Below are positions 4,468-23,244 of a DNA stretch of 32,000 bases, in pieces. The notes below the pieces were generated by a model, which was not told where the DNA came from, made no database searches, and worked only from the letters and a program-made list of their open reading frames with translations. How positions within the stretch are numbered: position 1 is the stretch's first letter; every line of letters starts with the position of its first letter. This DNA is from Halomicrobium mukohataei DSM 12286 (GTDB lineage: Archaea > Halobacteriota > Halobacteria > Halobacteriales > Haloarculaceae): NCBI RefSeq assembly GCF_000023965.1, contig NC_013202.1, forward strand, positions 1,770,001 to 1,802,000, read 5' to 3'. A program made the translations under genes and the position numbers.

Positions 4468-4480
4468 CAGAGACGAAAGC

Positions 4481-4488
4481 TTTACAAT
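4481..4488 (+). promoter_or_regulatory. TATA-like element upstream of cbtB
   Basis: tttacaat sits in the AT-rich 42-bp gap after chlID, centred ~26 nt upstream of the GTG at 4510. This fits a leaderless cbtB transcript. Confidence 0.3.
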
Positions 4489-4509
4489 CTAGTTTGTACT
4501 TAGTCACTC

Positions 4510-4707
4510 GTGGTTTCAATGACGACTGCTACCGACACCGTCTCGGGTCGCGTCGCACAGGCACAGACGGAACTGACTCCGACACAGTTACTCGCCGGCA
4601 TCGCGCTCGTGGCCGCGCTGGGCTTCGCGCTGGTCTTCCTCCAGGCACCGATGGCCCACGACTCGATGCACAACTTCCGACACGCCGCCGGGGTCGTCTG
4701 TCACTGA
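4510..4707 (+). CDS. cbtB: Putative cobalt transporter small subunit CbtB
   Basis: 65 aa with one TM helix (LLAGIALVAALGFALVFL) and the C-terminal His/Cys signature HDSMHNFRHAAGVVCH typical of CbtB. It lies next to cbtA and cobN. The start may be the GTG at 4510 or the ATG at 4519. Confidence 0.8.
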   Translation: MVSMTTATDTVSGRVAQAQTELTPTQLLAGIALVAALGFALVFLQAPMAHDSMHNFRHAAGVVCH

Positions 4708-4709
4708 TC

Positions 4710-5501
4710 ATGCTCGCCGACTACATTCTTCGCGGCGCGAAAGCGGGACTGGTCGCCGGCCTGCTGTTCGGGCTACTCGTGGCTCTGGTCGCCAATCCGC
4801 TCGTCGCTGCGGCCGACACGCACGGCCACGCCGAGGAGGGCCACGCTGAGGAAGGCCACGCCGAGGAGGGCCACGCTGACGAAGACCACGCCGAGGCCGG
4901 TGGTCACCACGAGAGCGCCGTCTCGGCGACGGTGACGAACGTCGTGAGCGTCGGTGCCAGCGTGCTGTGGGGCCTGCTGCTCGGGACGGTCGTCTTCGGC
5001 GTCGCCGGCTACGTCCTCGAACCGATCGTCCCCGGCGAGGGTGCCGTCCAGAGCGCGCTGCTCGCGGTCGGTGGCTTCGTCACCGTCTCCGGCGCGCCGT
5101 GGCTCCTCCTCCCGCCGTCGCTTCCGGGCGTCGAACGCGCCATCCCGACGGACACCGGCATGGTGCTCTACGCCGGCATGATGGTCGCTGGCGCGGTCGT
5201 CTGCCTGCTGTCTGCGGTGTGCTACGATCGACTCCGCGACCGGTACGGTCGCCCCGCGGCGGCGGTCGCCGCGCTGGTTCCCTTCGGGCTGCTCGTGGCC
5301 CCGGCCACGCTTACCCCTCTCGGACCGGCGACCGGCTCCCTGTCGCCAGCGCTGGCCGACGGGCTGCTCGGAACGGTCGTCTTCGGCCAGCTCCTCCTGT
5401 GGACGGCTCTCGCAGCGACACACGCGCGACTGGGCCGTGACGATGGGTCTCGACCGGCGACGCCGTCCGCACGGACAGACGCCGCCCTCAGTGCGGACTG
5501 A
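4710..5501 (+). CDS. cbtA: Putative cobalt transporter subunit CbtA with a His-rich loop
   Basis: Taken from the ATG at 4710 (MLADYILRGAKAGLVAGLLFGLLVALV...), 2 nt after the cbtB stop. It is a multi-TM protein with the loop HGHAEEGHAEEGHAEEGHADEDHAEAGGHH. The upstream part of the listed 4170..5501 ORF is an Arg-rich out-of-context read-through of chlID. Confidence 0.85.
   Translation: MLADYILRGAKAGLVAGLLFGLLVALVANPLVAAADTHGHAEEGHAEEGHAEEGHADEDHAEAGGHHESAVSATVTNVVSVGASVLWGLLLGTVVFGVAGYVLEPIVPGEGAVQSALLAVGGFVTVSGAPWLLLPPSLPGVERAIPTDTGMVLYAGMMVAGAVVCLLSAVCYDRLRDRYGRPAAAVAALVPFGLLVAPATLTPLGPATGSLSPALADGLLGTVVFGQLLLWTALAATHARLGRDDGSRPATPSARTDAALSAD
4824..4898 (+). repeat. Five tandem 15-bp units encoding (G/D)HA(E/D)(E/A) in the CbtA loop
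   Basis: The units are GGCCACGCCGAGGAG / GGCCACGCTGAGGAA / GGCCACGCCGAGGAG / GGCCACGCTGACGAA / GACCACGCCGAGGCC. Units 1 and 3 are identical and units 2 and 4 differ by one base, which implies duplication of a 30-bp block. Confidence 0.95.
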
Positions 5502-5839
5502 TGGAGGAACGCACGGTCGAGGTCCACGAGCGGGGCTTCTCCGATCACGTCCTCGTCTGTACGAACGGCCGAGAGAGCGAGCACGCCTGCTGTAGCGAGG
5601 CCGGCGGCGAGGCGGTCTTCGACGCCGTCGTCGAGTGGCTCCGCGAGCGCGACCTGCTGTGGTCGCGCGTCTACGTCGCCGAGACGGGCTGTCTCGGACT
5701 CTGTAGCGCCGACGGCGCGGCGATCGCGGTCCACCCCCGGAGCAGCTGGTACTCGGACGTGCGACCCGACGACGTGGCCCCGCTGCTGGCCGAGGAGTTC
5801 GGTCCCGACGGGTCCCGACTCGGTGTCACTGCCGACTGA
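5501..5839 (+). CDS. Thioredoxin-like [2Fe-2S] ferredoxin (CbiW-like)
   Basis: 112 aa. The start overlaps the cbtA stop (TGATG). VLVCTNGRESEHACCSEAGG ... ETGCLGLCSADGAAIAV gives the C-x(9-10)-C ... C-x3-C pattern of thioredoxin-fold 2Fe-2S ferredoxins. Confidence 0.78.
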   Translation: MEERTVEVHERGFSDHVLVCTNGRESEHACCSEAGGEAVFDAVVEWLRERDLLWSRVYVAETGCLGLCSADGAAIAVHPRSSWYSDVRPDDVAPLLAEEFGPDGSRLGVTAD

Positions 5840-6016: not shown

Positions 6017-7279
6017 CTACCGGCCCTGTGAACTTCTCGCCGACTGGCTTCTCGGCGCACGATCGACGAGAAGACGATACGCACCGCGCTCGGTGCCGTC
6101 GTCGTGGTAGACGACCGGCTCCTCGACGGCGACGACGCGGTCTCCGTCGACCGCGACTGCCGTGACGATGCCGTCGGTCTCGCGGCTCGCTACCGGGCCG
6201 TCCCGGGCCGACAGCACCCGCAGGCCGTGACAGTCGGCATCGCGCGTCCGGAAGTGCTGTGCGCCCGGCACGACTACGTGGTGGTCCGCGACGGCGATCT
6301 CGCCGGCAAACCCGCCCACGTCGGCCGACCACCGACGTTGGCCGTCCGGTCCGTAGCCGAAGGCGGTGTGTTCCGCGGGGTGGAGGGCGTCGGTCTCGCG
6401 ACGGTCGACGGCGTAGGTGTTGCCGGTGACGAAGACGGACGCTCCGTTGCCGGCGGCGACGTGGTTCGGGTACGCGTACAGCGTCTCGTCGCCGACCGTC
6501 GTCCGTGTCGCCAGCTCGGCGCGCCACCGGACGGTGCCGCCGTCGTCGAGGCGGTAGCCACAGTAGTCGCCGTGACTCGCGACGAGGGCACCGTCCTCGA
6601 CGAGCGCGACGTCACCGACCCGGCGCTGTCCGTCGCTGTCGGGATCCCACTGCCAGTGGCTCGTCCCATGTTCGGCGTCGAGCACGACGAGGCCCCGCTG
6701 GTGGCTGCCGGGACAGCGGTTGTACGCGACCGCGAGGCGGTCGTCTCGCCGATCGAGGCTGATCGGCGACGCGTCGGCCTCGAACTGCCAGCGTCGCGTC
6801 CCGTCGTCGGCGAACGCGGAGACGACGCTTCGAAACGAGCGGCGGTCGCCGTCGCGCTCGTAGCGGCGGGCGGCGACGTACGCGCGGTCCTCGTCGGTCA
6901 CGATGTCTGCGACGAACGGCAGGAAGAACCGCGTCTCTCTCTGTGGCTCGCCGATCTCTGCCGCCGTCGCGTGCTGCCAGCGCCGTCGACCCGTCGCCGC
7001 CTCGTAGCACCGCACCCGCCCGTCCGGGCCTCGCTCACCGGCGAGGACCGCGTCGCCGAACGCCGCGAGCGCGACCACGGCGGCGTCCGCTCCCTCGCGG
7101 TCCGCGCGCCACTGCTCTGTCAGGGTGGCGTGATCGAACGCGATCACGTCGCCCGTCGCCGTCCCGACGACGACCAGTTCACCCGTCAGCGCGACTGCCG
7201 AGCGCCGGCCCGCGTGGCGCGACCGCGCCGGAGACGGTTCGCCGAGGCCGACCGACCGTGGCTTCGGCCGCTCACTCAT
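6017..7279 (-). CDS. PQQ-like (BamB/YxaL-type) beta-propeller repeat protein, last gene of the cbi operon
   Basis: 420 aa with recurring propeller-blade motifs (...VVVGTATGDVIAFDHATLTEQWR..., ...VRCYEAATGRRRWQH..., ...DDGTRRWQFEA..., ...DAEHGTSHWQW..., ...DDGGTVRWRA..., ...GPDGQRRWSADV...). The start overlaps the upstream stop by 8 nt (ATGAGTGA). No convincing signal peptide is present. Confidence 0.75.
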   Translation of the reverse strand: MSERPKPRSVGLGEPSPARSRHAGRRSAVALTGELVVVGTATGDVIAFDHATLTEQWRADREGADAAVVALAAFGDAVLAGERGPDGRVRCYEAATGRRRWQHATAAEIGEPQRETRFFLPFVADIVTDEDRAYVAARRYERDGDRRSFRSVVSAFADDGTRRWQFEADASPISLDRRDDRLAVAYNRCPGSHQRGLVVLDAEHGTSHWQWDPDSDGQRRVGDVALVEDGALVASHGDYCGYRLDDGGTVRWRAELATRTTVGDETLYAYPNHVAAGNGASVFVTGNTYAVDRRETDALHPAEHTAFGYGPDGQRRWSADVGGFAGEIAVADHHVVVPGAQHFRTRDADCHGLRVLSARDGPVASRETDGIVTAVAVDGDRVVAVEEPVVYHDDGTERGAYRLLVDRAPRSQSARSSQGR

Positions 7280-7643
7280 CGACCGGGAAGGCTTCGTGGA
7301 GCACGTCGTGGGCCTCGCCCAGCCCGTCGAGGACGCTCTCGCCCTGGCTCGTCAGCCGGTGGACCGCTCGCTCGGCGTCCCGGACCGCGACGAGTCGCCC
7401 CCGCATGTAGTCGTACTCCTGACTGTCCGAATCGGCCTCGGCGATCTCGGCTTCGAGATCCACCAGCGCCGCGTCGAGGTGGCGTTCGATGGCCGAGAGG
7501 GACTCGGCCTCTGCCAGGGCCTCGATCGGGCCGTCGAGTTCGCCTTCGAGTTCTTTTTCCGCGTGCTCGCGCGCGTGTTCGTCTTCGCTTCCCAGTACGT
7601 TCATCAGTCCGAGTCGGAGTGCTTCGATTTCGTAGCAGCTCAT
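7272..7643 (-). CDS. Acidic, predicted all-helical 123-aa protein of unknown function. It may belong to the DUF3209 family, but that is from memory only.
   Basis: MSCYEIEALRLGLMNVLGSEDEHAREHAEKELEGELDG... The start overlaps the cbiX stop (ATGA) and the stop overlaps the next start (ATGAGTGA). The composition is typical of haloarchaeal coding sequence. Confidence 0.7.
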   Translation of the reverse strand: MSCYEIEALRLGLMNVLGSEDEHAREHAEKELEGELDGPIEALAEAESLSAIERHLDAALVDLEAEIAEADSDSQEYDYMRGRLVAVRDAERAVHRLTSQGESVLDGLGEAHDVLHEAFPVDE

Positions 7644-8872
7644 TGTGAGAGTGTTTGATCGACGAGTTCTGAGACGATGCGGTCACGGTCGAGGTGCGAG
7701 GAGACGATCCGCTCGGCGTCGTCCTCGCCGACGCCGCCGTACCAGACGCCGTCGGGGTAGACGGCGACCATCGGCCCCTCGCCACAGCGACCGAGACACG
7801 AGGAGCGGGTCACGCGGGCGTCACAGGCCTCCGAGTCGCGTTCGGCCTGCCGGAGCCGCTCCAGGACGGCGGCCGAGCCGTCGGCCGCGCAGGTCTGGTT
7901 CGTACAGACGGCGACGTGTTTCTCCGGGGCGTCGTGTGCGTGGGGTTCGTCGTCGACGTTCTCGCGGTCGGCGTGGGTCTCCTGGTGGGTCAGCGCCCGG
8001 AGCATCGCCCGCGCGCCGCCCACGTCTTCCTCGTAGCCGTCCAGTTCGACCTTGTACTTGCAGGTGTCACAGGACATCTCGACGCTGTCGGTGCGGGCCT
8101 CCTGCCAGCGGTCGCCCAGCACGTCCAGCAGCCGCGAGTCCGTCCCGAGGGGGTCGCCGGCCGCGGCGTCGACGTAGGGGTACTCCTCGTCGAACGCGTC
8201 GGCGCGGTCTCGAATCCGCTGGGTGAGGACCCCGTCGCCGAGCATGTACGGGAGGACGACGACGCCGTCCGGTCGCCGCTTGGCGACCGTGTGCAGCGTG
8301 TCCTCCAGGAGCGGTTCGGTCACGCCGATGAAGCTCGTCTCGACGTGGTCGAACGCGCGCCCCTCGTACAGCAGGCGCGCCAGTTTGTGCGCGTCGCTGT
8401 TGGCGTCGGGGTCGCTAGAGCCCCGGGCACAGAGGACGACCGTCAGATCGTCCGCCGTGCGGTCGAGTCCGAGTTCCGCCTCGACCGCCGCCGCGCGGTC
8501 GTCCAGCAGATCCACGATCGCCGGGTGGACGCCGAGGTGTGCCCCGTTGTGGATCGTCAGATCGGGGTGAGCCGAGCGGGCCTGCTCGACCGCCAGCGGC
8601 ACGTCGTTCTTGACGTGGCTCGCGGCAAAGAGCGAGAGCTGGACGACGGTGACCCGCGAGACCGACGCCGCCAGTCCCGCGATGGCCGCCTCGATCGAGG
8701 GCTCGGCGAGTTCGAGAAAGCCCGCGTCGGTCGGCACGCCGAGGCGCTCCTCGACGGCCGCGGCCAGCTCCCGGACCTGTTCGTTCGACTTCTCGCGTCG
8801 AGAGCCGTGTCCGACTAGCAGGACGGCCTCGTCGTCGAGCGAGACCGGCGTCGCGGCGGCGTCGGCGGTCAT
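7640..8872 (-). CDS. cbiX: Sirohydrochlorin cobaltochelatase, long form (CbiX-L), fused to a C-terminal thioredoxin-like [2Fe-2S] ferredoxin domain
   Basis: Taken from the ATG at 8872 (MTADAAATPVSLDDEAVLLVGHGSRR...), which overlaps the upstream stop (ATGA). There are two CbiX half-domains (LLVGHGSR..., VVLCARGSSD...). An MSCDTCKY (MxCxxC) motif and a His-rich stretch (HQETHADRENVDDEPHAHDAPEKH) follow. The protein ends with VAVCTNQTCAADGS...SSCLGRCGEGPMVAVYPDGVWYG, which is ferredoxin-like. The 36 codons upstream in the listed ORF are Arg-rich and overlap the previous gene. Confidence 0.88.
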   Translation of the reverse strand: MTADAAATPVSLDDEAVLLVGHGSRREKSNEQVRELAAAVEERLGVPTDAGFLELAEPSIEAAIAGLAASVSRVTVVQLSLFAASHVKNDVPLAVEQARSAHPDLTIHNGAHLGVHPAIVDLLDDRAAAVEAELGLDRTADDLTVVLCARGSSDPDANSDAHKLARLLYEGRAFDHVETSFIGVTEPLLEDTLHTVAKRRPDGVVVLPYMLGDGVLTQRIRDRADAFDEEYPYVDAAAGDPLGTDSRLLDVLGDRWQEARTDSVEMSCDTCKYKVELDGYEEDVGGARAMLRALTHQETHADRENVDDEPHAHDAPEKHVAVCTNQTCAADGSAAVLERLRQAERDSEACDARVTRSSCLGRCGEGPMVAVYPDGVWYGGVGEDDAERIVSSHLDRDRIVSELVDQTLSQ

Positions 8873-9582
8873 TCTAACGCCCCCACGTCGTTCCCGGTCG
8901 CGCGTTCGACGCTGCGCCGGAGCTTCTGGCGGCGCTGGGCCGAGTAGAGCCCCGTCTCGTCGCTGCCGGCGTACACCCACTCGGCGAACGCCGCCACGTC
9001 GGCGTCGTCGGCGAGTCCGAACCAGTAGCCCCCCGAGGACGTCTCCGAGCGGTCGTCCGTCGGCAGCGTCGGCGCTGCCTCGGCGAGCAGCGACCGGATC
9101 GTCGCCAGCAGCCGCTCGTCGTCGTGGACGAACGAGACCCCGACCGACCCGGAGGACTCGCGGAAACAGACCGTCCCGCAGGCCTCCAGCAGGCCACGCA
9201 CCAGCGCCGCTCGCTCCTCGCTGAAGGCGTCGAAGCGGTAGCCACCGGGCTGGCCGTCCAGCGGGAGACCGAGGGCCGCGCTCGCTCGGTCCGCGGGCGG
9301 GCCGAACACCTGTAGCTCGTAGGCGTCCTCGTACCGGACGATCGAGGCGTCGTGGGCCGACTCGCGCTCGGCGACGCGGTGGTCGCGGTCGGTGCGGTCG
9401 GCACCCGCGACTGCCGCCAGCGCGTTCGCGGCCGTCTCGTCGCCCGCCCGGACGGTCACGCAGTCCGCGGTGAGATCGCCGTCTCCGGCGACCCGGCCCC
9501 AGAAGTACGCCGTTCCGGGCGTGACCGCCAGCAGGTCCTCGGCGGCTCTCGGCGTCGCCCTCGCGCTGTCGGCGTCACTCAT
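8869..9582 (-). CDS. Hypothetical 237-aa cobalamin-operon protein with two degenerate LAGLIDADG-like motifs
   Basis: Taken from the ATG at 9582 (MSDADSARATPRAAEDLLAV...), which overlaps the fdx stop by 8 nt. Motif 1 is AYFWGRVAGDGD (res 25-36). Motif 2 is AALVRGLLEACGTV (res ~125-138). They lie ~100 residues apart, as in double-motif LAGLIDADG folds. No enzyme family was recognised. Confidence 0.75.
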   Translation of the reverse strand: MSDADSARATPRAAEDLLAVTPGTAYFWGRVAGDGDLTADCVTVRAGDETAANALAAVAGADRTDRDHRVAERESAHDASIVRYEDAYELQVFGPPADRASAALGLPLDGQPGGYRFDAFSEERAALVRGLLEACGTVCFRESSGSVGVSFVHDDERLLATIRSLLAEAAPTLPTDDRSETSSGGYWFGLADDADVAAFAEWVYAGSDETGLYSAQRRQKLRRSVERATGNDVGALE

Positions 9583-9817
9583 CGCTCCCCTCCGACACCG
9601 AGATCGCGTCGACCGGACAGGCGGCCGCGGCCTGTCGAGCCGCCTCGATCCGGTCGTCGTCGAACGTCGCGACGACGGTCTCCTCGCCGTCCGTGTCGGT
9701 CGCGCCGATCGTCGCCAGCCCGTCGCTGGCCTCCACGAACCGATCGTCACGGACGAGACAGGCGAAGACCCCGTCGCAGGCCGCCCGGTCGAGTGCCACG
9801 CGGTACTCAGTAGTCAT
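9575..9817 (-). CDS. fdx: Small ferredoxin, single-cluster type (C-x5-C ... CP, three Cys)
   Basis: 80 aa: MTTEYRVALDRAACDGVFACLVRDDRFV...AAAACPVDAISV. The pattern resembles mono-cluster [3Fe-4S]/[4Fe-4S] ferredoxins. The start overlaps the cbiH stop by 11 nt. Confidence 0.72.
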   Translation of the reverse strand: MTTEYRVALDRAACDGVFACLVRDDRFVEASDGLATIGATDTDGEETVVATFDDDRIEAARQAAAACPVDAISVSEGSDE

Positions 9818-10769
9818 ACTTGGACTCGTACCCCCGCGGCGTCACCATCCGGTCGTCCCAGACGTAGGTGTCCTCGTTGCCCACGAGGATGGTCGTCGTC
9901 ATGTCGATCAGATCGGTCTCGCCGAGGTCTTCGAGCTCGCCCAGCGTGACGATCTCGACGCTTTCGTCCTCGCGGCCCGCGCCGTGGACGATCCCCACGG
10001 GCGTGTCCGGGTCGCGGTGGTCCAGCAGGATCTCACAGCACCGCTGGAAGTTCTCCCGTCGCTTGCGGCTCCAGGGGTTGTAGATGGCGATGGTGAAGCC
10101 CTCGTCGGCGACGGCGTGCAGGCGCGACTCGATGGTCTCCATGGGCGTCAGGTGGTCGGACAGCGAGACGCTGACGGTGTCGTTGACCAGCGGCGCGCCC
10201 AGCCGCGCGCCACAGGACTGGGCCGCGGGCACGCCGGGGACGACCTCGAAGTCGACGGCACTGGCCGTCCCGCCCTTCGATTCGAGGATCTCCAGTGCGA
10301 GTCCGGCGAGCGCGTAGACGTTGGGGTCGCCGCTGCCGATGATCGCCACGTCGTTGCCCGCCAGCGCGCGGTCGATAGCCTCCTCCGTCCGAGAGACCTC
10401 GCCACACATCGGCGTGTCGTACAGTTCCTCGGCCGACTCGGTGATCTCCGCTGGCAGCAGGTCGACGTAGGTCGTGTAGCCGACGATGTGCTCCGCGTCG
10501 AGCAGCGCGCCCCGCGCTCGCTGGGTCATCCCCTCGGGCTGGCCGGGACCGAGACCGACCGCTACGAGGCGGCCGGGGTCGGCGTCGAAGTCGTCGACGG
10601 TCGCGCCGACCTTCTCGTCGGTCGTCGAATCCGAGCCACCACAGCCGGAACCGGACGACGAACTGTCGCTGCCGGCTCCGCACGTGGCGGCGCTGTCGTC
10701 GTCGGTACTGCTCGCGCCACAGTTCGATTCGGTGTCGGTACTCGCGTCGGTGGTGTCGTCAGTGCTCAT
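9807..10769 (-). CDS. cbiH: Cobalt-factor III / precorrin-3B C17-methyltransferase (CbiH/CobJ family) with a ~65-aa D/S/T/G-rich, Cys-containing N-terminal extension
   Basis: The tetrapyrrole methylase core reads LVAVGLGPGQPEGMTQRA...IIGSGDPNVYALAG...VVPGVPAAQSCGARLGAPL...ILVGNEDTYVWDDRMVTPRGYESKY. There is no alternative ATG or GTG before the methylase core. The start lies 2 nt after the upstream stop. Confidence 0.87.
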   Translation of the reverse strand: MSTDDTTDASTDTESNCGASSTDDDSAATCGAGSDSSSSGSGCGGSDSTTDEKVGATVDDFDADPGRLVAVGLGPGQPEGMTQRARGALLDAEHIVGYTTYVDLLPAEITESAEELYDTPMCGEVSRTEEAIDRALAGNDVAIIGSGDPNVYALAGLALEILESKGGTASAVDFEVVPGVPAAQSCGARLGAPLVNDTVSVSLSDHLTPMETIESRLHAVADEGFTIAIYNPWSRKRRENFQRCCEILLDHRDPDTPVGIVHGAGREDESVEIVTLGELEDLGETDLIDMTTTILVGNEDTYVWDDRMVTPRGYESKYDY

Positions 10770-10771
10770 TG

Positions 10772-11704
10772 TTAGAAGTCGTCGACGTCACGCCCGCCGC
10801 GCGGGGTGACGAGGTGTTTGCCGTAGTCGTTCTCCCAGACCTCCGTCTCGTGGTTGCCCACGAGGATCGAGGTGCCCATGCCGCCGACCTCGTCGTCGTG
10901 GTCGGTCGCCGCGCCCAGCGTCGTGATCGTGTGGGTCTCGTCCTCCAGATTGCGACCGGCCTCGCCCCGGCCGGCGTCGTTGAAGATGCCCACCGGCACG
11001 TCGTCGGCCCGCTCCTCGCGGAGCACGTCGATGGCGCGCTCGTAGTCGCGCCAGCAGTTGTAGAGGACGACGACGAAGCCGCTGATCGCCGCGGCCCGGA
11101 GCTTCTCCTCGATCTCGTCCCAGCCGCGCCACTTGTCGGACAGCGAGATCGTACAGAAGTCGTTCGACAGCGGCGCGCCGAGGTTGGCCGCGCCGCCAAG
11201 CGCCGCCGTCACGCCGGGGACGACCTCGATGGGCACGTCGGTCGCTCCCTCGGCCTCGGCCATCGTGTACAGCAGGTCGCTCTTGCCGTAGACGTTCGGG
11301 TCGCCGCCCGAGACGTGGGCCACATCCTCTCCCGCTCGAACCCGCTCGAAGGCCTCTCTGGCGAGTTCGATCTGGCGGCCCATCGAGGAGCGCACCAGCT
11401 CCTGGCGGGTCCCGTTTGGCCGTTCGAGGACGGTCCCCGACTCGCTGTCGGCCCCTCCGTCCGCGGCCGCCTCGATCGCCGCGCTCTCGGGTGGCAGCGT
11501 GCCGTCCTTGCGGAGGAACTCCTGGTAGAGGTTGGAGGCGATGACGCAGTCCGCGGTGCGGATCACGTCTTTCGCCTCCTGTGTCATCGCGTGGGGGAGG
11601 CCGGGACCGATCCCGACGACGGAGAGCGTGCCGTGGTCTCGGGATTCGCTCGCGGGTCGTTTCTCGCCGCTCGCGTCCGAGTCGTCGGGCGACTCCGCTG
11701 CCAT
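10772..11704 (-). CDS. cbiH: Second CbiH/CobJ-family C17-methyltransferase paralogue
   Basis: LSVVGIGPGLPHAMTQEAKDV...HVSGGDPNVYGKSD...VVPGVTAALGGAANLGAPLSNDFCTISLSD...ILVGNHETEVWENDYGKHLVTPRGG. It has the same architecture as the downstream gene but is clearly divergent. Confidence 0.85.
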   Translation of the reverse strand: MAAESPDDSDASGEKRPASESRDHGTLSVVGIGPGLPHAMTQEAKDVIRTADCVIASNLYQEFLRKDGTLPPESAAIEAAADGGADSESGTVLERPNGTRQELVRSSMGRQIELAREAFERVRAGEDVAHVSGGDPNVYGKSDLLYTMAEAEGATDVPIEVVPGVTAALGGAANLGAPLSNDFCTISLSDKWRGWDEIEEKLRAAAISGFVVVLYNCWRDYERAIDVLREERADDVPVGIFNDAGRGEAGRNLEDETHTITTLGAATDHDDEVGGMGTSILVGNHETEVWENDYGKHLVTPRGGRDVDDF

Positions 11705-11705
11705 C

Positions 11706-12692
11706 CTACCGCCCCACCGCCACGGTGACGGCGTCGTCGAAGCGCTCCTTCTCGCGGGCGAGGTCGTGCTCGCGGCCGCCAGCGATGGCCGAGGCCTCCG
11801 CGATGCCCGGCCAGCCGATCAGCTCCTTCGACCGGGAGGGCGAGGGGCCCTCGAACGTTTCCAGGGTCTCTTTCTCGAAGAGGACGACGCCGGCCCCGAT
11901 CTCCTGGGCGGCCTCGTAGAGCCCGTCTTCGCCCTCCTTTCGGGTCCCCGTGGCGACGAAGTCCACGTCCGAGCGGTCGAGGTCCAGGTCGTCGAGCGCG
12001 GCGTCCCAGGCGTCGAGCACCTGCTGGGTGTCGACGCCGGAGACCGTCCCCGTCCCCAGCACCACGCCGTCGTCTTCGTTGCGCTTGAGCACGGTCACGT
12101 CGTCGCCCACGAGGACGGCCTTCGGGCCGTCGAGTCGCGCCACGGGAGCCAGTTCCTCGTTCAGCACCGCGAGGTTCGTCGCCACCGTCGAGTCGCCGTT
12201 GACGACGTGGGTGTCCAGCGCTTTCGCCTTGCTCTCGACGCCCTGCTTGCCCGCGGCCTCGCTCGCGGTCGTCATCGCCGGCACCGCGCCGAGGCGGGCG
12301 AGGTCGTTGGCGACCTGATTGGCACCGTGGTGGCCCCCGGTGATCGGGATGGCCCAGGTCAGGGCCTCGTCGATCACGACGATCGCGGGGTCGTCCCACT
12401 TGTCGTCGAGCAGCGGCGCGGTCTTTCGCATCGCGATGCCCGAGGCCATCAGGCCGACGAAGCAGTCGTACTCCCCCCAGTACTCCTCGAACACGTCGCC
12501 GTGGTACTCGACGATGTCGACGCTCTCGTAGTCGTCTCCGATCTCGGCCTCGATCTCGCGCGCCGTGTCGAGCTTGCGCTCGAAACTGATGATCGCGATC
12601 TCTTCGGCCACTTCCCCGTCCGAGTCGGGCGTCGAACAGTGGCCGCTCGATTCCTCGTTGCCTGTGTCGTTGTCGTCTGTTTCGGTACTCAT
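11706..12692 (-). CDS. cbiG: Cobalt-precorrin-5A hydrolase CbiG
   Basis: 328 aa: ...CFVGLMASGIAMRKTAPLLDDKWDDPAIVVIDE...IPITGGHHGAN...; C-terminal ...VATGTRKEGEDGLYEAAQEIG...GWPGIAEASAIAGG. This is typical of the CbiG N, middle and C domains. Confidence 0.87.
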   Translation of the reverse strand: MSTETDDNDTGNEESSGHCSTPDSDGEVAEEIAIISFERKLDTAREIEAEIGDDYESVDIVEYHGDVFEEYWGEYDCFVGLMASGIAMRKTAPLLDDKWDDPAIVVIDEALTWAIPITGGHHGANQVANDLARLGAVPAMTTASEAAGKQGVESKAKALDTHVVNGDSTVATNLAVLNEELAPVARLDGPKAVLVGDDVTVLKRNEDDGVVLGTGTVSGVDTQQVLDAWDAALDDLDLDRSDVDFVATGTRKEGEDGLYEAAQEIGAGVVLFEKETLETFEGPSPSRSKELIGWPGIAEASAIAGGREHDLAREKERFDDAVTVAVGR

Positions 12693-12695
12693 GTA

Positions 12696-13559
12696 TCAGT
12701 CGTCCGCCTCGCTCTCGCTTCCGTCACGATTCGCCCAGCCGTCGTACAGATACGAGCGTTCGTAGCCCGCCTTCCGGGCCGCGTCGCCGATCACCACCAG
12801 CGCCGAGGCGCGGTAGCCGGCGGCCTCGACGCGGTCGCCGATCGTCTCGATCGTTCCCTCGATCACGTCCTCGTCCGGCCAGGAGGCGTGATAGACGACG
12901 GCGACCGGCGTGTCCGGGTCGTGACCGTCGTCGAGCAGGCGGTCCATCGTCTCGGCGACGGCGTGGGTGCCGAGGTAGAGACAGGTCGTCACGTCGCCCA
13001 TCTCGACGAACTCGGAGATGTGGTCGTCCTCGGCGTCGAGGGTCTTGCCCTGCGGGCGGGTGAAGGCGACGTGGTTCGCCACGCCGTTCAGGGTCAGCTG
13101 GGTCCGCAGCGTCGCACTCGCCGCGAACGCCGAGGTCACGCCGGGGACGATGTAGGTCGGAACGCCCTCGTGTTCCAGCGCGTCCATCTGTTCCAGCGCC
13201 GCGCCGTAGATCGCCGGATCGCCGCTGTGGAGTCGCACCACGTCACGTCCGTCCTCGTAGGCGTCTCGCATCAGCGGCACCAGCTCTTCGAGGTCCTTGC
13301 CGATGCTCGAAACCTGTTCGGCGTCCGCACAGTAGGCGTCGAGCAGCTCGCTGTTGACCAGCGAGCCGGCGTGGACGACCAGATCCGCGTCCTCGACCAG
13401 TTCCCTGCCGGTGACCGTCAGCAGTCCCGGATCGCCGGGGCCGGCACCGACGAAGGGGATCCCGTCCTGTACGTCGCCAGCGGCGTGGGCCTGTATCCGT
13501 TCGTCGCGGTCCGCGCGGTCGTCTGTGGCCGCGTCGATCGCGTCCTGTGGGTCCGTCAT
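12696..13559 (-). CDS. cbiF: Cobalt-precorrin-4 C11-methyltransferase CbiF
   Basis: Taken from the ATG at 13559 (MTDPQDAIDA...). IPFVGAGPGDPGLLTVTGRELVEDADLVVHAGSLV...VVRLHSGDPAIYGA...IVPGVTSAFAASA...ALVVIG. The start overlaps the cbiL stop (ATGA). The first 264 codons of the listed 551-aa ORF are an Arg-rich read-through across cbiL in another frame. Confidence 0.92.
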   Translation of the reverse strand: MTDPQDAIDAATDDRADRDERIQAHAAGDVQDGIPFVGAGPGDPGLLTVTGRELVEDADLVVHAGSLVNSELLDAYCADAEQVSSIGKDLEELVPLMRDAYEDGRDVVRLHSGDPAIYGAALEQMDALEHEGVPTYIVPGVTSAFAASATLRTQLTLNGVANHVAFTRPQGKTLDAEDDHISEFVEMGDVTTCLYLGTHAVAETMDRLLDDGHDPDTPVAVVYHASWPDEDVIEGTIETIGDRVEAAGYRASALVVIGDAARKAGYERSYLYDGWANRDGSESEADD

Positions 13560-14326
13560 CGCTGTCCCCCCGCGGACGCGTCGGCGCTGGCATCGCCGTC
13601 GGTCGCCTCGACGGCCGTCCCGGCCTCTCCTCGCTCGTCTGCCGTCTCGAAGGTCGCCGTCGCCGGCTCGGCTTCGAGCCCTCGCTTCTCGGCGTAGGCC
13701 AGCGTGTAGTAGTCCCGTTCCGTGAGTTCCTCTGGGTCGTCGGTGACGACCGTCTCTCCCTGTTCCATGTAGAGCCGGCGGCCGTAGACGACCTCGTAGC
13801 CGGCGTCGACGAGCCGTTCGTGGGTCGCCGGCACGTCCGTCACCTTGAACAGCACCATTCGGTCTGGCCCGGTCGGGGCCGCCCCGCGGGCCGCCTCGTG
13901 GAGCGTGAGGCTCGCGCCGGCCGCCACTTCGACGCCAAGCGCCGTCGTGAACGCGCTGACGGCGCTGACGCCGGGGACCGTCTCGACGGTCACGCCGGGG
14001 TGAAACGCGTCCAGCGTCCGGCGCAGGTGGCCGAACGTCGAGTAGACGTTCGGGTCCCCGAGCGTCACGAACGCCGCCGTTCCGTCGCGGGCTCGCGGTG
14101 CGATCTCGGCGGCGGCCGCCTTCCAGGCCCGGCGGAGTTCGTCCTCGTCGCGGGTCATCGGGAAGTCGAGGTCTCCGATCCGTTCCTCGTCGACGTACGC
14201 CGTCGCGACCGACCGCGAGAGCCTGCCGGGCGTGTACACCACGTCGGCGGTTTCGAGGACCTCGCGCCCGCGCACGGTCACGAGGTCGGCGTCCCCGGGG
14301 CCGAGCCCGACGCCGTAGAGGGTCAC
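13556..14326 (-). CDS. cbiL: Cobalt-factor II (precorrin-2) C20-methyltransferase CbiL
   Basis: MTLYGVGLGPGDADLVTVRGREVLETADVVY...FVTLGDPNVYSTFGHL...VPGVSAVSAFTTALG. It has a GTG start that overlaps the cbiT stop (GTGA). Confidence 0.9.
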   Translation of the reverse strand: MTLYGVGLGPGDADLVTVRGREVLETADVVYTPGRLSRSVATAYVDEERIGDLDFPMTRDEDELRRAWKAAAAEIAPRARDGTAAFVTLGDPNVYSTFGHLRRTLDAFHPGVTVETVPGVSAVSAFTTALGVEVAAGASLTLHEAARGAAPTGPDRMVLFKVTDVPATHERLVDAGYEVVYGRRLYMEQGETVVTDDPEELTERDYYTLAYAEKRGLEAEPATATFETADERGEAGTAVEATDGDASADASAGGQR

Positions 14327-14883
14327 TGCTCTCCCTCCCGGTTCCCCGCACCGCCGACGAGCATGTACACCGGGTTCTCGGCGTCGAAGCTCGTCGCCCC
14401 GGCGAGTTCGTAGCCGTGGCTCACCTGGAACTGGACGACCTCGTCGAGGATCTCTCGCTCGCGGAACGCCTCGGTCGCGCTACCCGCCACTTCGAGCCGC
14501 GAGACGTTCATTACGATCCGATCGACCTCGGTCTCGACGGCGTGGTCGAGGATCGCCTCGTAGTTCCGACTCCCGCCCAGAAAGAGCGCGTCGGCGTCGT
14601 CGGGGAGTCCGTCGGGGGCCTCGGCCTCGCGGACGGTCACGTCGGCGGCCGCGTCGTTGGCCGCGAGGTTCTTGCGCGTCGTTGCAACCTTACTTGCCTT
14701 GCGCTCCAGTGCGGTGACCCGTCCGGCGCGGCGACTCGCCTGGATCGTCACGGCACCGGTACAGGAGCCGACTTCCGCGAAGTGGTCGTCCGGGCCGAGA
14801 GCGAGCTTGTCGAGCAGGACGGCCCTGACTTCCGGCTTCGTCGGGCCTGCCTTGGCGTCGTGAGGAAGCGATACGTGCGCCAT
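14323..14883 (-). CDS. cbiT: Cobalt-precorrin-6B C15-methyltransferase (decarboxylating) CbiT
   Basis: Taken from the ATG at 14883 (MAHVSLPHDAKAGPTKPEVRAVLLDKLALGPDDHFAEVGSCTGAVTIQ...). This is a class I SAM-MTase with the CbiT-type N-terminus. An alternative start at 14916 would remove the TATA spacing. Confidence 0.85.
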   Translation of the reverse strand: MAHVSLPHDAKAGPTKPEVRAVLLDKLALGPDDHFAEVGSCTGAVTIQASRRAGRVTALERKASKVATTRKNLAANDAAADVTVREAEAPDGLPDDADALFLGGSRNYEAILDHAVETEVDRIVMNVSRLEVAGSATEAFREREILDEVVQFQVSHGYELAGATSFDAENPVYMLVGGAGNREGEQ

Positions 14884-14907: not shown

Positions 14908-14916
14908 GTAAAACAA
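14908..14916 (-). promoter_or_regulatory. TATA-like element for the cbi operon
   Basis: The minus strand reads TTGTTTTAC, 25-33 nt upstream of the cbiT ATG. It lies in the only AT-rich segment between the response-regulator stop (14971) and cbiT. Confidence 0.4.
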
Positions 14917-14932
14917 TTTTGGTTGTTTTACT

Positions 14933-14951
14933 CCAAGGAGTTTTTCCTTGG
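14933..14951 (-). terminator. Short hairpin (CCAAGG-7 nt-CCTTGG) downstream of the response regulator gene
   Basis: ccaaggagtttttccttgg was read directly. It lies 20 nt after the stop at 14971, and T-rich sequence follows on the minus strand. It could act as a terminator or as a regulatory site. Confidence 0.3.
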
Positions 14952-15540: not shown

Positions 15541-15723
15541 GTCTGTGGTCGTAGGGTCCCTGACGCAAAGAAGCTGACTGCAGTCGGGACAGCCCCTCGG
15601 GACGGCCTCGGTTGCCGTCGATTCGTATCTCCTCTCTCGTCACGAAACCACCACGAGCGTTCCGGTGATTTGATAGTGTCCGACAGTCGGATACCCTATA
15701 GTGATGCACGGGCGTGGTCGGCC

Positions 15724-23239: not shown

Positions 23240-23244
23240 CGGCC

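What the first reader, a model, noticed from the sequence alone, without database searches (positions are those of the whole stretch)
6017..14883. 11-gene translationally coupled cbi operon carrying three unassigned ORFs while lacking several canonical steps
The junctions on the minus strand, in order, are:
- cbiT/cbiL: GTGA overlap
- cbiL/cbiF: ATGA overlap
- cbiF/cbiG: 3-nt gap
- cbiG/cbiH: 1-nt gap
- cbiH/cbiH: 2-nt gap
- cbiH/fdx: 11-nt overlap
- fdx/ORF237: 8-nt overlap (ATGAGTGA)
- ORF237/cbiX: ATGA overlap
- cbiX/ORF123: ATGA overlap
- ORF123/propeller: 8-nt overlap (the same ATGAGTGA)

No gap exceeds 3 nt over 8.9 kb, so all eleven genes are almost certainly co-transcribed and co-translated. 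The recognisable enzymes cover cobalt chelation (CbiX), C20 (CbiL), C17/ring contraction (CbiH x2), C11 (CbiF), CbiG and C15/decarboxylation (CbiT). The window contains nothing resembling CbiD (C1), CbiJ (reductase), CbiE (C5), CbiC (mutase) or CbiA.

The inference is that the three unassigned ORFs (8869-9582, 7272-7643, 6017-7279) are candidates for missing or accessory corrin-pathway functions. From memory, haloarchaeal annotations label such ORFs only as conserved cobalamin operon/cluster proteins, and pathway gaps are regarded as open. I cannot verify this here.
Basis: partly seen in the sequence, partly recalled or inferred. Interest (0 to 1): 0.7.

Follow-up and report, generated by a model that had tools for sequence, protein, structure and literature searches.

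The report
Haloarchaeal B12 operon with orphan genes
This is the well-conserved vitamin B12 ring-building operon of salt-loving archaea; its three unnamed genes and its two missing enzyme steps are already a published open problem, and comparison with bacteria now narrows down which orphan gene may fill which gap.

Summary
Eleven minus-strand genes (6017-14883) are joined by overlaps or gaps of 3 nt or less. The window is 100% identical to a Halomicrobium chromosome.

"Lacking several steps" is overstated. cbiC and cbiE lie just beyond the left window edge, after cobN. Only CbiD and CbiJ are truly missing. That gap, and these orphan genes as candidates, were published in 2021 for the identical Haloferax volcanii cluster.

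New here:
- ORF123 (DUF3209) always directly follows a CbiX fused to a [2Fe-2S] ferredoxin domain. This holds in 48 loci, including Thermus and Leptospiraceae B12 clusters. Those clusters have CbiD but never CbiJ. Deinococcus has CbiJ and lacks the pair. The pair is therefore a redox module and the best CbiJ-substitute candidate, not a CbiD substitute.
- ORF237 has a degenerate double-LAGLIDADG (homing-endonuclease/WhiA-like) fold. A cysteine replaces a catalytic acid. It is haloarchaea-specific within cbi operons.
- The propeller is dispensable in some genera.
- A nearly invariant 24-bp palindromic element precedes cbiT, and precedes cbiH1 where the operon is split.

All functions remain inferred.

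The parts
14908..14931 (-). Conserved promoter/operator element GTAAAACAACCAAAATTGTTTTAC. It is an inverted repeat, AAAACAA-N6-TTGTTTT, ending 24 nt before the cbiT ATG. A third TTGT half-site lies closer to the ATG.
   Evidence: The 18-nt core occurs once in the window, against 0 expected. It is nearly invariant, at a fixed distance from the cbiT start, in about 35 haloarchaeal loci. Exact copies in 22 high-GC metagenome contigs all precede cbiT, cbiH1 or a propeller paralogue. No Rfam family matches.
14323..14883 (-). [quoted passage not shown]
   Evidence: TIGR02469, 95 bits (cut-off 78.3). Same gene call in L003.
13556..14326 (-). cbiL, cobalt-factor II C20-methyltransferase
   Evidence: NF004063, 459 bits. 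GTGA overlap with cbiT.
12696..13559 (-). cbiF, cobalt-precorrin-4 C11-methyltransferase
   Evidence: TIGR01465, 251 bits, just below the cut-off of 259.65; TP_methylase, 161 bits.
11706..12692 (-). cbiG, cobalt-precorrin-5A hydrolase, the signature enzyme of the cobalt-early route
   Evidence: NF004465, 481 bits; CbiG_N and CbiG_C.
10772..11704 (-). cbiH1, a divergent CbiH-type class III methyltransferase paralogue with an insertion. SAM motifs GIGPG and SGGDP are intact. Published candidate for the missing C1 methylation.
   Evidence: TIGR01466, 184 bits, below the cut-off of 246, matched in two stretches. Sequence. Orthologue of HVO_B0058. Gets its own copy of the operator where the operon is split.
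9807..10769 (-). cbiH2, canonical cobalt-factor III C17-methyltransferase (ring contraction). Carries a Cys/Ser/Gly/Asp-rich N-terminal extension.
   Evidence: TIGR01466, 312 bits. Sequence.
9575..9817 (-). Small single-cluster ferredoxin (80 aa, 3 Cys), overlapping the cbiH2 stop by 11 nt
   Evidence: PF13459 Fer4_15, E 1e-17. Present in all haloarchaeal loci and in no bacterial DUF3209 locus.
8869..9582 (-). ORF237, a degenerate double-LAGLIDADG-fold protein (precomputed label PF26411). Motif 1 is FWGRVAGDG (residues 27-35). Motif 2 is VRGLLEACG (residues 128-136), followed by C139.
   Evidence: AF2 model pLDDT 87, pTM 0.87. Foldseek top hits are I-Tsp061I, intein endonucleases, WhiA, bI3 maturase and I-DmoI. 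Invariant H77, R129, G130, G136, C139, W187, F188, Y204, R217. Only 21 clusters at 50% identity among 1.84 billion proteins.
7640..8872 (-). cbiX fusion: two CbiX chelatase domains, a CDTC linker motif, and a C-terminal thioredoxin-like [2Fe-2S] ferredoxin domain (Cx4C...Cx3C)
   Evidence: PF01903, 168 bits in two stretches; PF01257, 31.6 bits (cut-off 24.8). Aligns end to end with Thermus CbiX (32% identity). The Leptospira CbiX has the same architecture.
7272..7643 (-). ORF123, DUF3209: a small all-helical protein with invariant Cys3, Glu5, His27, Glu31, His112 and His116
   Evidence: PF11483, 173 bits. PDB 2EHW (TTHB059), E 1.6e-8. AF2 pLDDT 93; the only structural match is 2EHW, TM 0.77-0.81. 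Invariant residues across three phyla. Always directly downstream of the CbiX-ferredoxin fusion.
6017..7279 (-). PQQ_2-type beta-propeller (420 aa) with no obvious signal peptide; last gene of the operon
   Evidence: PF13360, 71 bits; the PQQ dehydrogenase model is below threshold. Absent from the operon in Halosimplex and one Haloarcula. A 35%-identical paralogue lies about 290 nt downstream of the same operator in an unlinked contig.
1..2273 (-). cobN, 5' part (runs off the window). It heads a cobN-cbiC-cbiE unit that continues left of the window.
   Evidence: L003 gene calls with PF02514, then PF02570 (CbiC), then TP_methylase. Window position 1 = L003 position 4501.
2308..4467 (+). chlID-type AAA+/VWA chelatase subunit, divergent from cobN. 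The 34-nt intergenic region carries related TTGTWWWA/TAATACAA half-sites.
   Evidence: Mg_chelatase, AAA_lid_2 and VWA. L003 call. Sequence. A related motif sits at the same place in Haloarcula loci.
4519..5839 (+). cbtB (4519-4707), cbtA (4710-5501) and a [2Fe-2S] ferredoxin (5501-5839): a cobalt uptake unit convergent with the operon
   Evidence: PF09489 and PF09490. The stand-alone ferredoxin is about 30-34% identical to the C-terminal domain of the CbiX fusion. Annotated as a (2Fe-2S) ferredoxin in Haloferax and Halorubrum.

Best explanation
The feature is the chromosomal copy, in Halomicrobium mukohataei or a near-identical strain, of the core haloarchaeal cobalt-early corrin operon: cbiT-cbiL-cbiF-cbiG-cbiH1-cbiH2-fdx-ORF237-cbiX(Fdx)-DUF3209-propeller.

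Shown:
- The eleven genes are packed for translational coupling.
- The order is fixed across Halobacteria.
- A nearly invariant palindromic promoter/operator lies 24 nt before the cbiT start.
- cbiC and cbiE lie just outside the window.
- CbiD and CbiJ are absent from all such clusters.

Inferred mechanism:
1. The operon is transcribed as one, probably leaderless, mRNA under a dedicated B12-regulon operator.
2. The CbiX-[2Fe-2S] fusion plus DUF3209 is one functional module, shared with Thermus and Leptospiraceae. It carries out an electron-transfer step. Electrons would come from ferredoxins in haloarchaea and from an adjacent FNR-like flavoprotein in Leptospira.
3. The most likely step is the otherwise unassigned C18=C19 reduction of cobalt-precorrin-6A, the CbiJ step.
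4. The haloarchaea-only set (cbiH1, the small ferredoxin, ORF237, the propeller) goes with the haloarchaea-only gap, CbiD. The methyltransferase paralogue CbiH1 is the likely C1 methylase. The ferredoxin is a likely electron donor for reductive ring contraction by CbiH2.
5. ORF237 is a domesticated LAGLIDADG-fold protein with a Cys/His site where the nuclease site used to be. It is either the regulator that reads the operator or a metal- or corrin-binding accessory.
6. The propeller is a dispensable accessory or scaffold.
For: - Identity and annotation.
- Conserved order.
- Published gaps and candidates: PMC8305020 and PMC6719526.
- Module evidence: in 48 of 48 DUF3209 loci a full-length CbiX-ferredoxin fusion lies directly upstream on the same strand, and no CbiJ/CobK lies within 10 kb. 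CbiD is present in every bacterial locus long enough to show it and in no haloarchaeal locus.
- The Thermus brockianus cluster holds every ring step except CbiJ. Its only unassigned elements are DUF3209 and the ferredoxin domain.
- Leptospira has CbiX-Fdx, DUF3209, then an FNR-like FAD protein, then CbiD and the rest. All three genes are co-inherited with the cob cluster across 20 Leptospira species (PMC4758666).
- Deinococcus, the sister lineage of Thermus, has a CbiH-CbiJ fusion and neither the ferredoxin domain nor DUF3209. Ralstonia follows the same pattern.
- DUF3209 has invariant Cys/His/Glu in i,i+4 pairs across three phyla.
- ORF237 fold.
- Operator.
Against: - No experiment links any orphan gene to a reaction.
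- Genome-wide absence of CbiJ in Thermus and Leptospira could not be tested. Only clusters and replicons were searched.
- The co-occurrence rests on three lineages against two or three, so it is a small independent sample.
- DUF3209 is a 123-aa helical protein with no known cofactor site and no structural relative besides 2EHW.
- The Fe-S components could equally serve other redox steps: precorrin-2 oxidation, or cobalt-factor III reduction.
- Distant ORF237 relatives in bacteria are not in B12 contexts.
- ORF237 is as acidic as its neighbours, pI 4.5, which neither favours nor excludes DNA binding.
Confidence: 0.55

Rival explanations
1. The CbiX-ferredoxin/DUF3209 module serves the chelatase end of the pathway, not the CbiJ step. 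It might oxidise precorrin-2 to sirohydrochlorin (a SirC substitute), supply electrons for the cobalt-factor III to cobalt-precorrin-4 conversion, or deliver or gate cobalt for CbiX. CbiJ would then be replaced by something else, or the pathway would bypass precorrin-6A.
For: - DUF3209 is glued to cbiX in every locus.
- In Thermus it sits between cbiX and cobA, the enzyme that makes precorrin-2.
- No precorrin-2 dehydrogenase is annotated in the Thermus or Leptospira clusters.
- Invariant Cys/His residues fit a metal site.
- Own knowledge, not tested here: Bacillus megaterium CbiX-long carries an Fe-S centre although that organism has CbiJ, and its CbiH60 needs an Fe-S domain or reducing conditions.
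Against: - Haloarchaea already have SirC (HVO_2312) yet keep the module.
- The only enzymatic step missing from all three lineages' clusters is CbiJ.
- Lineages with CbiJ lack the module.
Confidence: 0.3
2. ORF237 is a transcription factor: a homing endonuclease fold turned regulator, as in WhiA. It would bind the 22-24 bp palindromic operator of the cbi promoters and respond to cobalt or a corrinoid through its Cys/His site. It would not be an enzyme of the pathway.
For: - It has a double-LAGLIDADG fold. All top structural matches are nucleic-acid-binding proteins, including the regulator WhiA.
- The catalytic acid is replaced by Cys, so it is not a nuclease.
- It has a conserved basic C-terminal helix, RRxKLRRS.
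- The operator is about 22-24 bp and palindromic, the size class of LAGLIDADG target sites. It is specific to cbi promoters.
- No other conserved DNA-binding candidate is in the cluster.
- A 35%-identical relative sits between two cation-efflux (CDF) transporter genes, a typical place for a metal-sensing regulator.
- Own knowledge: Rodionov et al. 2003 (PMID 12869542) predicted an unidentified archaeal B12 regulator with a 'CBL-box'. The paper could not be read here.
Against: - The gene sits mid-operon and is translationally coupled to enzymes.
- Its Haloferax orthologue is seen in proteomics and varies with the biosynthetic enzymes.
- Bacterial relatives lie next to NMO and GST enzymes rather than obvious targets.
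- Its two halves differ, whereas the operator is symmetric.
- Nothing ties the protein to the DNA element except co-occurrence.
Confidence: 0.3
3. One reading: ORF237, DUF3209 and the propeller are themselves the missing enzymes, a novel C1 methyltransferase and a novel reductase. The order of the two steps might be swapped, giving a new intermediate.
For: - There are two consecutive gaps and a small set of orphans with conserved synteny.
- The orphans are co-regulated with the pathway.
- ORF237 has an invariant Cys/His/Glu cluster, which is compatible with catalysis.
Against: - None of the three has a SAM-binding or nucleotide-binding fold.
- DUF3209 coexists with CbiD in bacteria.
- The propeller is missing from the operon in Halosimplex.
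- A bona fide methyltransferase paralogue, CbiH1, is available for the methylation.
Confidence: 0.2
4. ORF237 is only a decayed remnant of a mobile LAGLIDADG homing endonuclease that happened to land in the operon, with no present function.
For: It has a LAGLIDADG fold with a degenerate active site.
Against: - It is full length and in the same position in all haloarchaeal loci, with 45-79% identity across genera and a set of invariant residues.
- There is no intein or intron context.
- Its start and stop overlap its neighbours.
- The Haloferax orthologue is detected as protein.
Confidence: 0.03

Closest known systems
Haloferax volcanii pHV3 cobalamin cluster HVO_B0048-B0062 (Pfeiffer & Dyall-Smith 2021, PMC8305020)
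   Same: It has the same eleven genes in the same order. HVO_B0062 to B0052 correspond to cbiT through the propeller. cobN/chlID, cbiC/cbiE and cbtAB lie nearby. It has the same two gaps (EC 2.1.1.195 and EC 1.3.1.106) and the same orphan genes.
   Different: It is on a megaplasmid in Haloferax and on the chromosome here. The flanking units are arranged differently: cbtAB lies upstream of cbiT in Haloferax and downstream of the propeller here. Junction spacings differ slightly.
Thermus megaplasmid cbi cluster with TTHB059 (PDB 2EHW), and the Leptospira interrogans cob I/III cluster (LB_163-LB_165)
   Same: The CbiX-[2Fe-2S] fusion is directly followed by DUF3209 inside a cobalt-early cluster. 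No CbiJ is in the cluster.
   Different: The bacterial clusters have CbiD, a single CbiH, a fused CbiET, and no ORF237, small ferredoxin or propeller. Leptospira adds an FNR-like flavoprotein.
Canonical cobalt-early (anaerobic) pathway operons of Salmonella enterica and Bacillus megaterium
   Same: CbiL, CbiH, CbiF, CbiG, CbiT, CbiE and CbiC act with early cobalt insertion.
   Different: The canonical operons contain CbiD and CbiJ. They use CbiK, or a CbiX without a thioredoxin-like ferredoxin domain. They have no DUF3209, ORF237 or propeller. Own knowledge: B. megaterium puts its Fe-S centres on CbiH60 and on a short C-terminal motif of CbiX-long.
LAGLIDADG homing endonucleases and their domesticated relatives (I-DmoI, I-Tsp061I, PI-SceI endonuclease domain, bI3 maturase, WhiA)
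   Same: ORF237 shares the monomeric two-domain alpha-beta-beta-alpha-beta-beta-alpha fold and two recognisable LAGLIDADG-like helices.
   Different: Cys135 replaces the catalytic acid of motif 2. The motif 1 acid is not conserved in distant members. ORF237 has no intron or intein context. It has a conserved Cys/His cluster and is embedded in a biosynthetic operon.
CbiJ/CobK precorrin-6A reductase, and ferredoxin-dependent bilin reductases as a mechanistic analogy
   Same: The step that needs filling is a two-electron reduction of a tetrapyrrole double bond. Fe-S electron carriers are built into the cluster.
   Different: There is no sequence or fold relation between DUF3209 and either family. 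The analogy is inference only.

Membership tests
Cobalt-early (cbi) corrin-ring operon | Early cobaltochelatase (CbiX/CbiK) and CbiG present | tested here: met
   CbiX, 168 bits; CbiG NF004465, 481 bits.
Cobalt-early (cbi) corrin-ring operon | Ring methyltransferases CbiL, CbiH, CbiF and CbiT present | tested here: met
   NCBIfam equivalog or Pfam hits. CbiF is 251 bits, against a cut-off of 259.65.
Cobalt-early (cbi) corrin-ring operon | CbiD (C1 methyltransferase, PF01888) present | tested here: not met
   No tblastn hit in the window or in any haloarchaeal locus, although the same queries find CbiD in the Thermus and Leptospira loci. Reported absent from haloarchaea.
Cobalt-early (cbi) corrin-ring operon | CbiJ (cobalt-precorrin-6A reductase, PF02571) present | tested here: not met
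   No CbiJ or CobK hit in the window or in 48 DUF3209 loci. Positive controls were found in Salmonella, Rhizobium, Ralstonia and Deinococcus. The whole Halomicrobium genome was not searchable.
Cobalt-early (cbi) corrin-ring operon | CbiE and CbiC present | tested here: met
   They are not in the window. They are on the same contig directly left of it: L003 1275-2033 and 2030-2875.
Translationally coupled polycistronic operon | Stop/start overlaps or gaps of a few nt at every junction | tested here: met
   All ten junctions lie between -11 and +3 nt.
Translationally coupled polycistronic operon | A single transcript spans all genes | not testable with these tools
   No RNA data. Indirect evidence: one conserved promoter element lies before cbiT, and a second copy appears only where the operon is physically split before cbiH1.
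DUF3209 (PF11483) | Full-length match above the gathering score | tested here: met
   172.9 bits against 25, covering residues 1-122 of the 124-position model.
DUF3209 (PF11483) | Same fold as the solved member TTHB059 (2EHW) | tested here: met
   phmmer E 1.6e-8. AF2 model against 2EHW: TM 0.77-0.81, rmsd 2.5 A.
LAGLIDADG homing endonuclease | Two-domain alpha-beta-beta-alpha-beta-beta-alpha fold | tested here: met
   Model pLDDT 87. Foldseek probability 1.00 to I-Tsp061I, I-DmoI, PI-SceI and WhiA, with TM 0.43-0.62.
LAGLIDADG homing endonuclease | An acidic catalytic residue at the end of each LAGLIDADG motif | tested here: not met
   Motif 2 has Cys135, nearly invariant. Motif 1 Asp34 is replaced by Arg or Lys in distant members.
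LAGLIDADG homing endonuclease | Residence in an intron, an intein or a free-standing mobile context | tested here: not met
   It occupies a fixed position between fdx and cbiX in all haloarchaeal loci.
Pfam PF26411 (labelled LAGLIDADG_4 in the precomputed tables) | HMM match | tested here: inconclusive
   The precomputed hit is listed for ORF237 and all its homologues. The model is not in the local Pfam copy, so hmmscan returns nothing even at E = 10.
PQQ-dependent dehydrogenase | Match to the PQQ dehydrogenase propeller model, plus export signal and cofactor site | tested here: not met
   Only the generic PQQ_2 (BamB-like) repeat passes, at 71 bits. PF01011 scores 21.3, below its cut-off of 26.7. 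The N-terminus shows no hydrophobic signal segment. The cofactor site was not testable.
CbiX-long with an Fe-S centre | Two CbiX domains plus a cysteine-ligated Fe-S module | tested here: met
   PF01903 x2 and PF01257, 31.6 bits above the cut-off of 24.8, with Cx4C...Cx3C. The module type differs from the short MxCxxC motif that I recall for B. megaterium.

The most novel reading that the evidence does not exclude
Two untested readings survive.

(a) The CbiX-[2Fe-2S] fusion together with DUF3209 is a previously unrecognised, ferredoxin-type cobalt-precorrin-6A reductase. It would be a non-orthologous replacement of CbiJ, shared by Halobacteria, Thermus and Leptospiraceae, and fed by ferredoxins or by an FNR-like flavoprotein. 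I put this at about 0.3.

(b) ORF237 founds a class of homing-endonuclease-derived, metal- or corrinoid-sensing regulators. It would read the 24-bp palindromic operator of the haloarchaeal B12 regulon, and so would be the long-sought archaeal B12 regulator. I put this at about 0.2-0.3.

The probability given is for at least one of the two being right.
Probability: 0.4. Interest if true: 0.8.

Novelty: already known. Interest (0 to 1): 0.45.

Why it matters
Archaea and several aerobic bacteria make vitamin B12 without two enzymes, CbiD and CbiJ, that the textbook cobalt-early pathway requires. How they do it has been open for about two decades. It limits pathway prediction from genomes and metagenomes, where producers are scored by marker genes. 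It also limits pathway engineering.

The finding as written restates a published open issue. The comparison made here turns it into sharper, cheap experiments. It names one two-gene module (CbiX-ferredoxin plus DUF3209) for the reductase gap, testable with existing Thermus proteins and a solved structure. It names one methyltransferase paralogue for the methylation gap. It also identifies an unusual LAGLIDADG-fold protein and a defined DNA element as a candidate regulator and operator pair for archaeal B12 control.

Tried and rejected
- Local Pfam and NCBIfam scans of ORF237 gave nothing, even at E = 10. The PF26411 label comes only from the precomputed tables.
- Rfam found no riboswitch or other RNA family in the window.
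- The DUF3209 fold search found only its own family. An idea that it is hemerythrin-like or ferritin-like, based on its HxxxE and HxxxH spacing, has no structural support and was dropped.
- The 120-aa gene next to a bacterial ORF237 relative is not a DUF3209. The nearby bacterial propeller is an unrelated, larger PQQ protein.
- Distant ORF237 relatives are not B12-linked. Family-wide context therefore gives only a loose metal or redox theme.
- The isoelectric point and charge of ORF237 are uninformative.
- Rodionov 2003 (CBL-box) is not in the library. Whether the element seen here equals that box is unverified.
- The genome-contig scan for DUF3209 was limited by two peptide patterns. It returned only Halobacteria, Thermus and Leptospiraceae/Spirochaetia. 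Other phyla cannot be excluded.
- About 99 of 121 metagenome matches to the 18-mer were in low-GC contigs and were treated as chance.
- A Tat signal in the propeller N-terminus (GRRSAV) was considered and rejected, because no hydrophobic stretch follows it.

Full report
**Observation.** Both 8-nt overlaps read ATGAGTGA. All eleven show GC3 of 0.80-0.93, typical of genuine haloarchaeal coding frames.

Profile searches give these assignments:
- CbiT, CbiL, CbiF and CbiG.
- A divergent CbiH paralogue, below the equivalog cut-off and matched in two pieces.
- A canonical CbiH.
- A Fer4_15 ferredoxin.
- A CbiX with two chelatase domains and a C-terminal thioredoxin-like [2Fe-2S] domain.
- DUF3209 for ORF123.
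- A PQQ_2 propeller.

ORF237 matches nothing in the local libraries.

**Where it comes from.** The first 15.8 kb of the window are 100% identical to the part of GCA_009217585.1 contig CP045142.1 (a 3.09-Mb chromosome) that was fetched. The proteins are those of Halomicrobium mukohataei. Independent gene calls on that contig give the same eleven genes.

**What is and is not missing.** The window indeed has no CbiA, CbiC, CbiD, CbiJ/CobK or CobG homologue. However, cobN runs off the left edge. It is followed on the same strand by cbiC and a cbiE-type methylase, 1.6-3.2 kb beyond window position 1. In Haloferax, cbiA lies at another locus. The genuine gaps are CbiD and CbiJ. Two papers report this for haloarchaea.

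**Prior knowledge.** Pfeiffer and Dyall-Smith (2021, PMC8305020) describe the identical cluster on Haloferax volcanii pHV3.
- They list the two consecutive gaps, EC 2.1.1.195 and EC 1.3.1.106.
- They name HVO_B0052 (PQQ repeat), B0053 (DUF3209), B0055 (conserved hypothetical) and B0056 (ferredoxin) as the obvious candidates.
- They suggest the second CbiH paralogue for the methylation.
- They raise a possible swapped order of the two steps.
- They report conserved synteny and proteomic co-variation.

The annotated pHV3 region shows the same order, gene for gene. So do Halorubrum, Halorussus, Natronococcus and Halobaculum replicons. The finding as written is therefore correct but already published.

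**ORF123 (DUF3209).** It matches PF11483 at 173 bits and the solved but uncharacterised Thermus protein TTHB059, PDB 2EHW. An AlphaFold model (pLDDT 93) is all-helical and matches only 2EHW among PDB folds. The fold itself therefore gives no functional hint.

Context is more informative.
- In Thermus brockianus the gene sits directly after a 367-aa CbiX inside a complete B12 cluster.
- That CbiX aligns end to end with the window's CbiX, including the CDTC motif and the ferredoxin domain.
- In Leptospira interrogans chromosome II the order is CbiX-ferredoxin, DUF3209, an FNR-like FAD protein, CbiD, and then the rest of the pathway.
- Fouts et al. show these three genes share the phyletic pattern of the cob cluster across 20 Leptospira species.

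I tabulated all fetched loci. There are 48 with DUF3209: about 38 haloarchaeal, 6 Thermus and 4 Leptospiraceae/Spirochaetia.
- In all 48 a full-length CbiX-ferredoxin fusion lies immediately upstream on the same strand.
- None has a CbiJ or CobK homologue within 10 kb.
- CbiD is present in every bacterial locus long enough to show it, and in none of the haloarchaeal ones.

In the plasmid collection, DUF3209 occurs in 52 records (34 Thermus, 16 haloarchaeal, 2 Leptospira). This is essentially the same set as the full-length CbiX-ferredoxin fusions. CbiJ hits fall on other taxa. Ralstonia and Deinococcus have a CbiX without the ferredoxin domain. Deinococcus, the sister lineage of Thermus, carries a CbiH-CbiJ fusion and no DUF3209.

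Two conclusions follow.
- DUF3209 is not a CbiD substitute, because it coexists with CbiD.
- In Thermus the cluster holds every ring step except CbiJ, and its only unassigned elements are DUF3209 and the ferredoxin domain. This is a one-gap, one-orphan match.

Across three phyla the invariant residues are Cys3, Glu5, His27, Glu31, Tyr79, Arg81, His112 and His116. The i,i+4 spacing of His27/Glu31 and His112/His116 would suit a metal or proton-relay site. That last point is inference.

**ORF237.** The precomputed tables label it PF26411, 'LAGLIDADG_4'. The family is tiny: 21 clusters at 50% identity among 1.84 billion proteins. An AlphaFold model built on 21 diverse sequences is confident (pLDDT 87, pTM 0.87). 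It shows two alpha-beta-beta-alpha-beta-beta-alpha units. Foldseek returns only LAGLIDADG proteins at the top: I-Tsp061I, intein endonucleases, WhiA, bI3 maturase and I-DmoI.

The two motifs can be read in the sequence: FWGRVAGDG and VRGLLEACG. The catalytic position of motif 2 is a nearly invariant Cys135, followed by invariant Cys139. The acid of motif 1 is lost in distant members. His77 is invariant, and Glu133 and His153 nearly so. It is therefore not a nuclease. It is a domesticated LAGLIDADG scaffold with a Cys/His site where the active site was.

Distant bacterial members lie next to an NMO-type flavoenzyme or a GST, not B12 genes. A 35%-identical archaeal member lies between two cation-efflux (CDF) transporter genes and a rhodanese. 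Within cbi operons it is haloarchaea-specific.

**The propeller.** It matches only the generic PQQ_2 repeat, not the PQQ dehydrogenase model, and it has no signal peptide. It is absent from the operon in two Halosimplex loci and one Haloarcula locus. It is therefore the least constrained member. A 35%-identical paralogue in an unlinked metagenome contig lies about 290 nt downstream of the same promoter element.

**A promoter/operator.** The 87-nt gap upstream of cbiT contains GTAAAACAACCAAAATTGTTTTAC, an inverted repeat ending 24 nt before the ATG.
- The 18-nt core is unique in the window, with none expected by chance.
- It is nearly invariant, at a fixed distance from the cbiT start, in about 35 loci from at least 10 genera. 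A further GTTGTA lies closer to the ATG.
- Where the operon is split after cbiG (Haloarcula and two metagenome contigs), a second copy sits in front of cbiH1.
- A related copy lies in the cobN/chlID divergent region.
- All 22 exact matches in high-GC metagenome contigs precede cbiT, cbiH1 or the propeller paralogue.
- No Rfam family matches.

The spacing fits a TATA-like element driving a leaderless mRNA, overlapped by an operator. From memory, Rodionov et al. 2003 predicted a 'CBL-box' for an unidentified archaeal B12 regulator. I could not retrieve that paper to compare.

**Most likely mechanism.**

Shown:
- one tightly coupled eleven-gene unit behind a dedicated, conserved control element;
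- a CbiX-ferredoxin/DUF3209 pair shared with two bacterial lineages whose clusters lack only CbiJ;
- a haloarchaea-only set (CbiH1, small ferredoxin, ORF237, propeller) that parallels the haloarchaea-only loss of CbiD.

Inferred:
- The pair performs an electron-transfer step, most economically the cobalt-precorrin-6A reduction. Electrons would arrive through the fused [2Fe-2S] domain, from ferredoxins here and from NAD(P)H via the FNR-like protein in Leptospira.
- CbiH1 performs the C1 methylation, as the homologous class III enzyme CobF does in the cobalt-late route.
- The small ferredoxin, which overlaps cbiH2, supplies electrons for reductive ring contraction. It would stand in for the Fe-S domain of B. 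megaterium CbiH60.
- ORF237 is either the operator-binding regulator or a metal- or corrin-binding accessory.
- The propeller is a dispensable accessory.

**Limits.**
- Nothing here is experimental.
- Genome-wide absence of CbiJ in Thermus and Leptospira was not testable.
- The co-occurrence rests on few independent lineages.
- The Fe-S module could serve precorrin-2 oxidation or cobalt-factor III reduction instead.

**Verdict.** This is a correct observation of a known, conserved operon, and an interpretation that was already in print. Its list of missing steps is overstated. The value added here is a sharper assignment of candidates and two testable new leads.

Noticed in passing
window 14908-14931 (minus strand), 24 nt upstream of the cbiT ATG: A nearly invariant palindromic element, GTAAAACAACCAAAATTGTTTTAC. 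It is conserved upstream of cbiT in about 35 haloarchaeal loci. It is duplicated before cbiH1 where the operon is split. It is a likely B12-regulon promoter/operator and possibly the 'CBL-box' predicted in 2003.
   Followed up: yes
window 2274-2307 (cobN/chlID divergent intergenic) and 4468-4518 (upstream of cbtB): Both short AT-rich intergenic regions carry ACAA/TTGT-type inverted half-sites that resemble the cbiT element (TTGTTAAA...TAATACAA; TACAATCTAGTTTGTA). Haloarcula loci have a clearer copy at the cobN/chlID site.
   Followed up: partly
window 1-4467, and L003 1275-6773: A cobalt-late type chelatase (CobN plus a ChlID-type AAA+/VWA subunit) sits next to a cobalt-early operon, with cbiC and cbiE co-oriented behind cobN. 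Its role in a cobalt-early organism is unexplained. The 2021 paper speculates salvage.
   Followed up: partly
window 5501-5839 (+): The stand-alone [2Fe-2S] ferredoxin after cbtB-cbtA is about 30-34% identical to the C-terminal ferredoxin domain of the CbiX fusion. The cluster therefore carries two copies of this module, plus a 4Fe-4S-type ferredoxin.
   Followed up: partly
window 10635-10769 (N-terminus of cbiH2, residues 1-65): CbiH2 has a low-complexity Asp/Ser/Thr/Gly-rich N-terminal extension with four cysteines in CG or CGG contexts (NCGAS, TCGAG, GCGGS). This may be a metal- or cluster-binding tail. Conservation was not examined.
   Followed up: no
L027 4663-5770 (also L028, L031, L034, L038, L041, L046, L151): In Haloarcula and some metagenome contigs the operon is interrupted by about 0.3-3.3 kb between cbiG and cbiH1 (about 1.1 kb in Haloarcula L027). 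The second half (cbiH1 to the propeller) has its own copy of the operator. Haloarcula rara carries two such loci on one plasmid (L048, L049); in L048 no cbiT-cbiG genes were detected upstream.
   Followed up: partly
L060 7059-9978 (archaeal MAG GCA_034190545.1): A 35%-identical relative of ORF237 lies in a tight row: CDF cation-efflux gene, LAGLIDADG_4, rhodanese, CDF cation-efflux gene. A 10-bp palindrome, AAAACGTTTT, lies about 30 nt before the first gene. This hints at a metal-related role for the family.
   Followed up: partly
L078 10788-12101 (metagenome contig): A propeller paralogue, 35% identical, is unlinked to cbi genes. An exact copy of the 18-nt operator core lies about 290 nt upstream of it.
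   Followed up: partly
window 14933-14951 (minus strand): A hairpin, CCAAGG-N7-CCTTGG, lies 20 nt after the stop of the HalX-type response regulator gene (14971-15540) and just upstream of the cbiT operator. It may be that gene's terminator. The regulator is not conserved next to the operon in other genera.
   Followed up: no
L003 325-1113 (+), left of the window: A second, short CbiX (262 aa) is encoded beside cbiE. It is probably the siroheme-branch ferrochelatase paralogue discussed for Haloferax, but that was not tested.
   Followed up: no
window about 28000-31300: A low-GC island (0.49-0.55, against about 0.69 elsewhere). Two of its three ORFs (28287-28964 and 29196-30362) were scanned and have no Pfam hit; the third (30597-31301) was not scanned. 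It is probably foreign or mobile DNA.
   Followed up: no
window 15190-18688, 18769-19755, 20909-24630, 25423-27901: Ordinary neighbours on the far side of the operon: trkH/trkA potassium uptake genes, a TatD-type hydrolase, two MFS transporters, and cytochrome bd oxidase (only subunit II, 26912-27901, was confirmed by Pfam). None is related to B12.
   Followed up: partly
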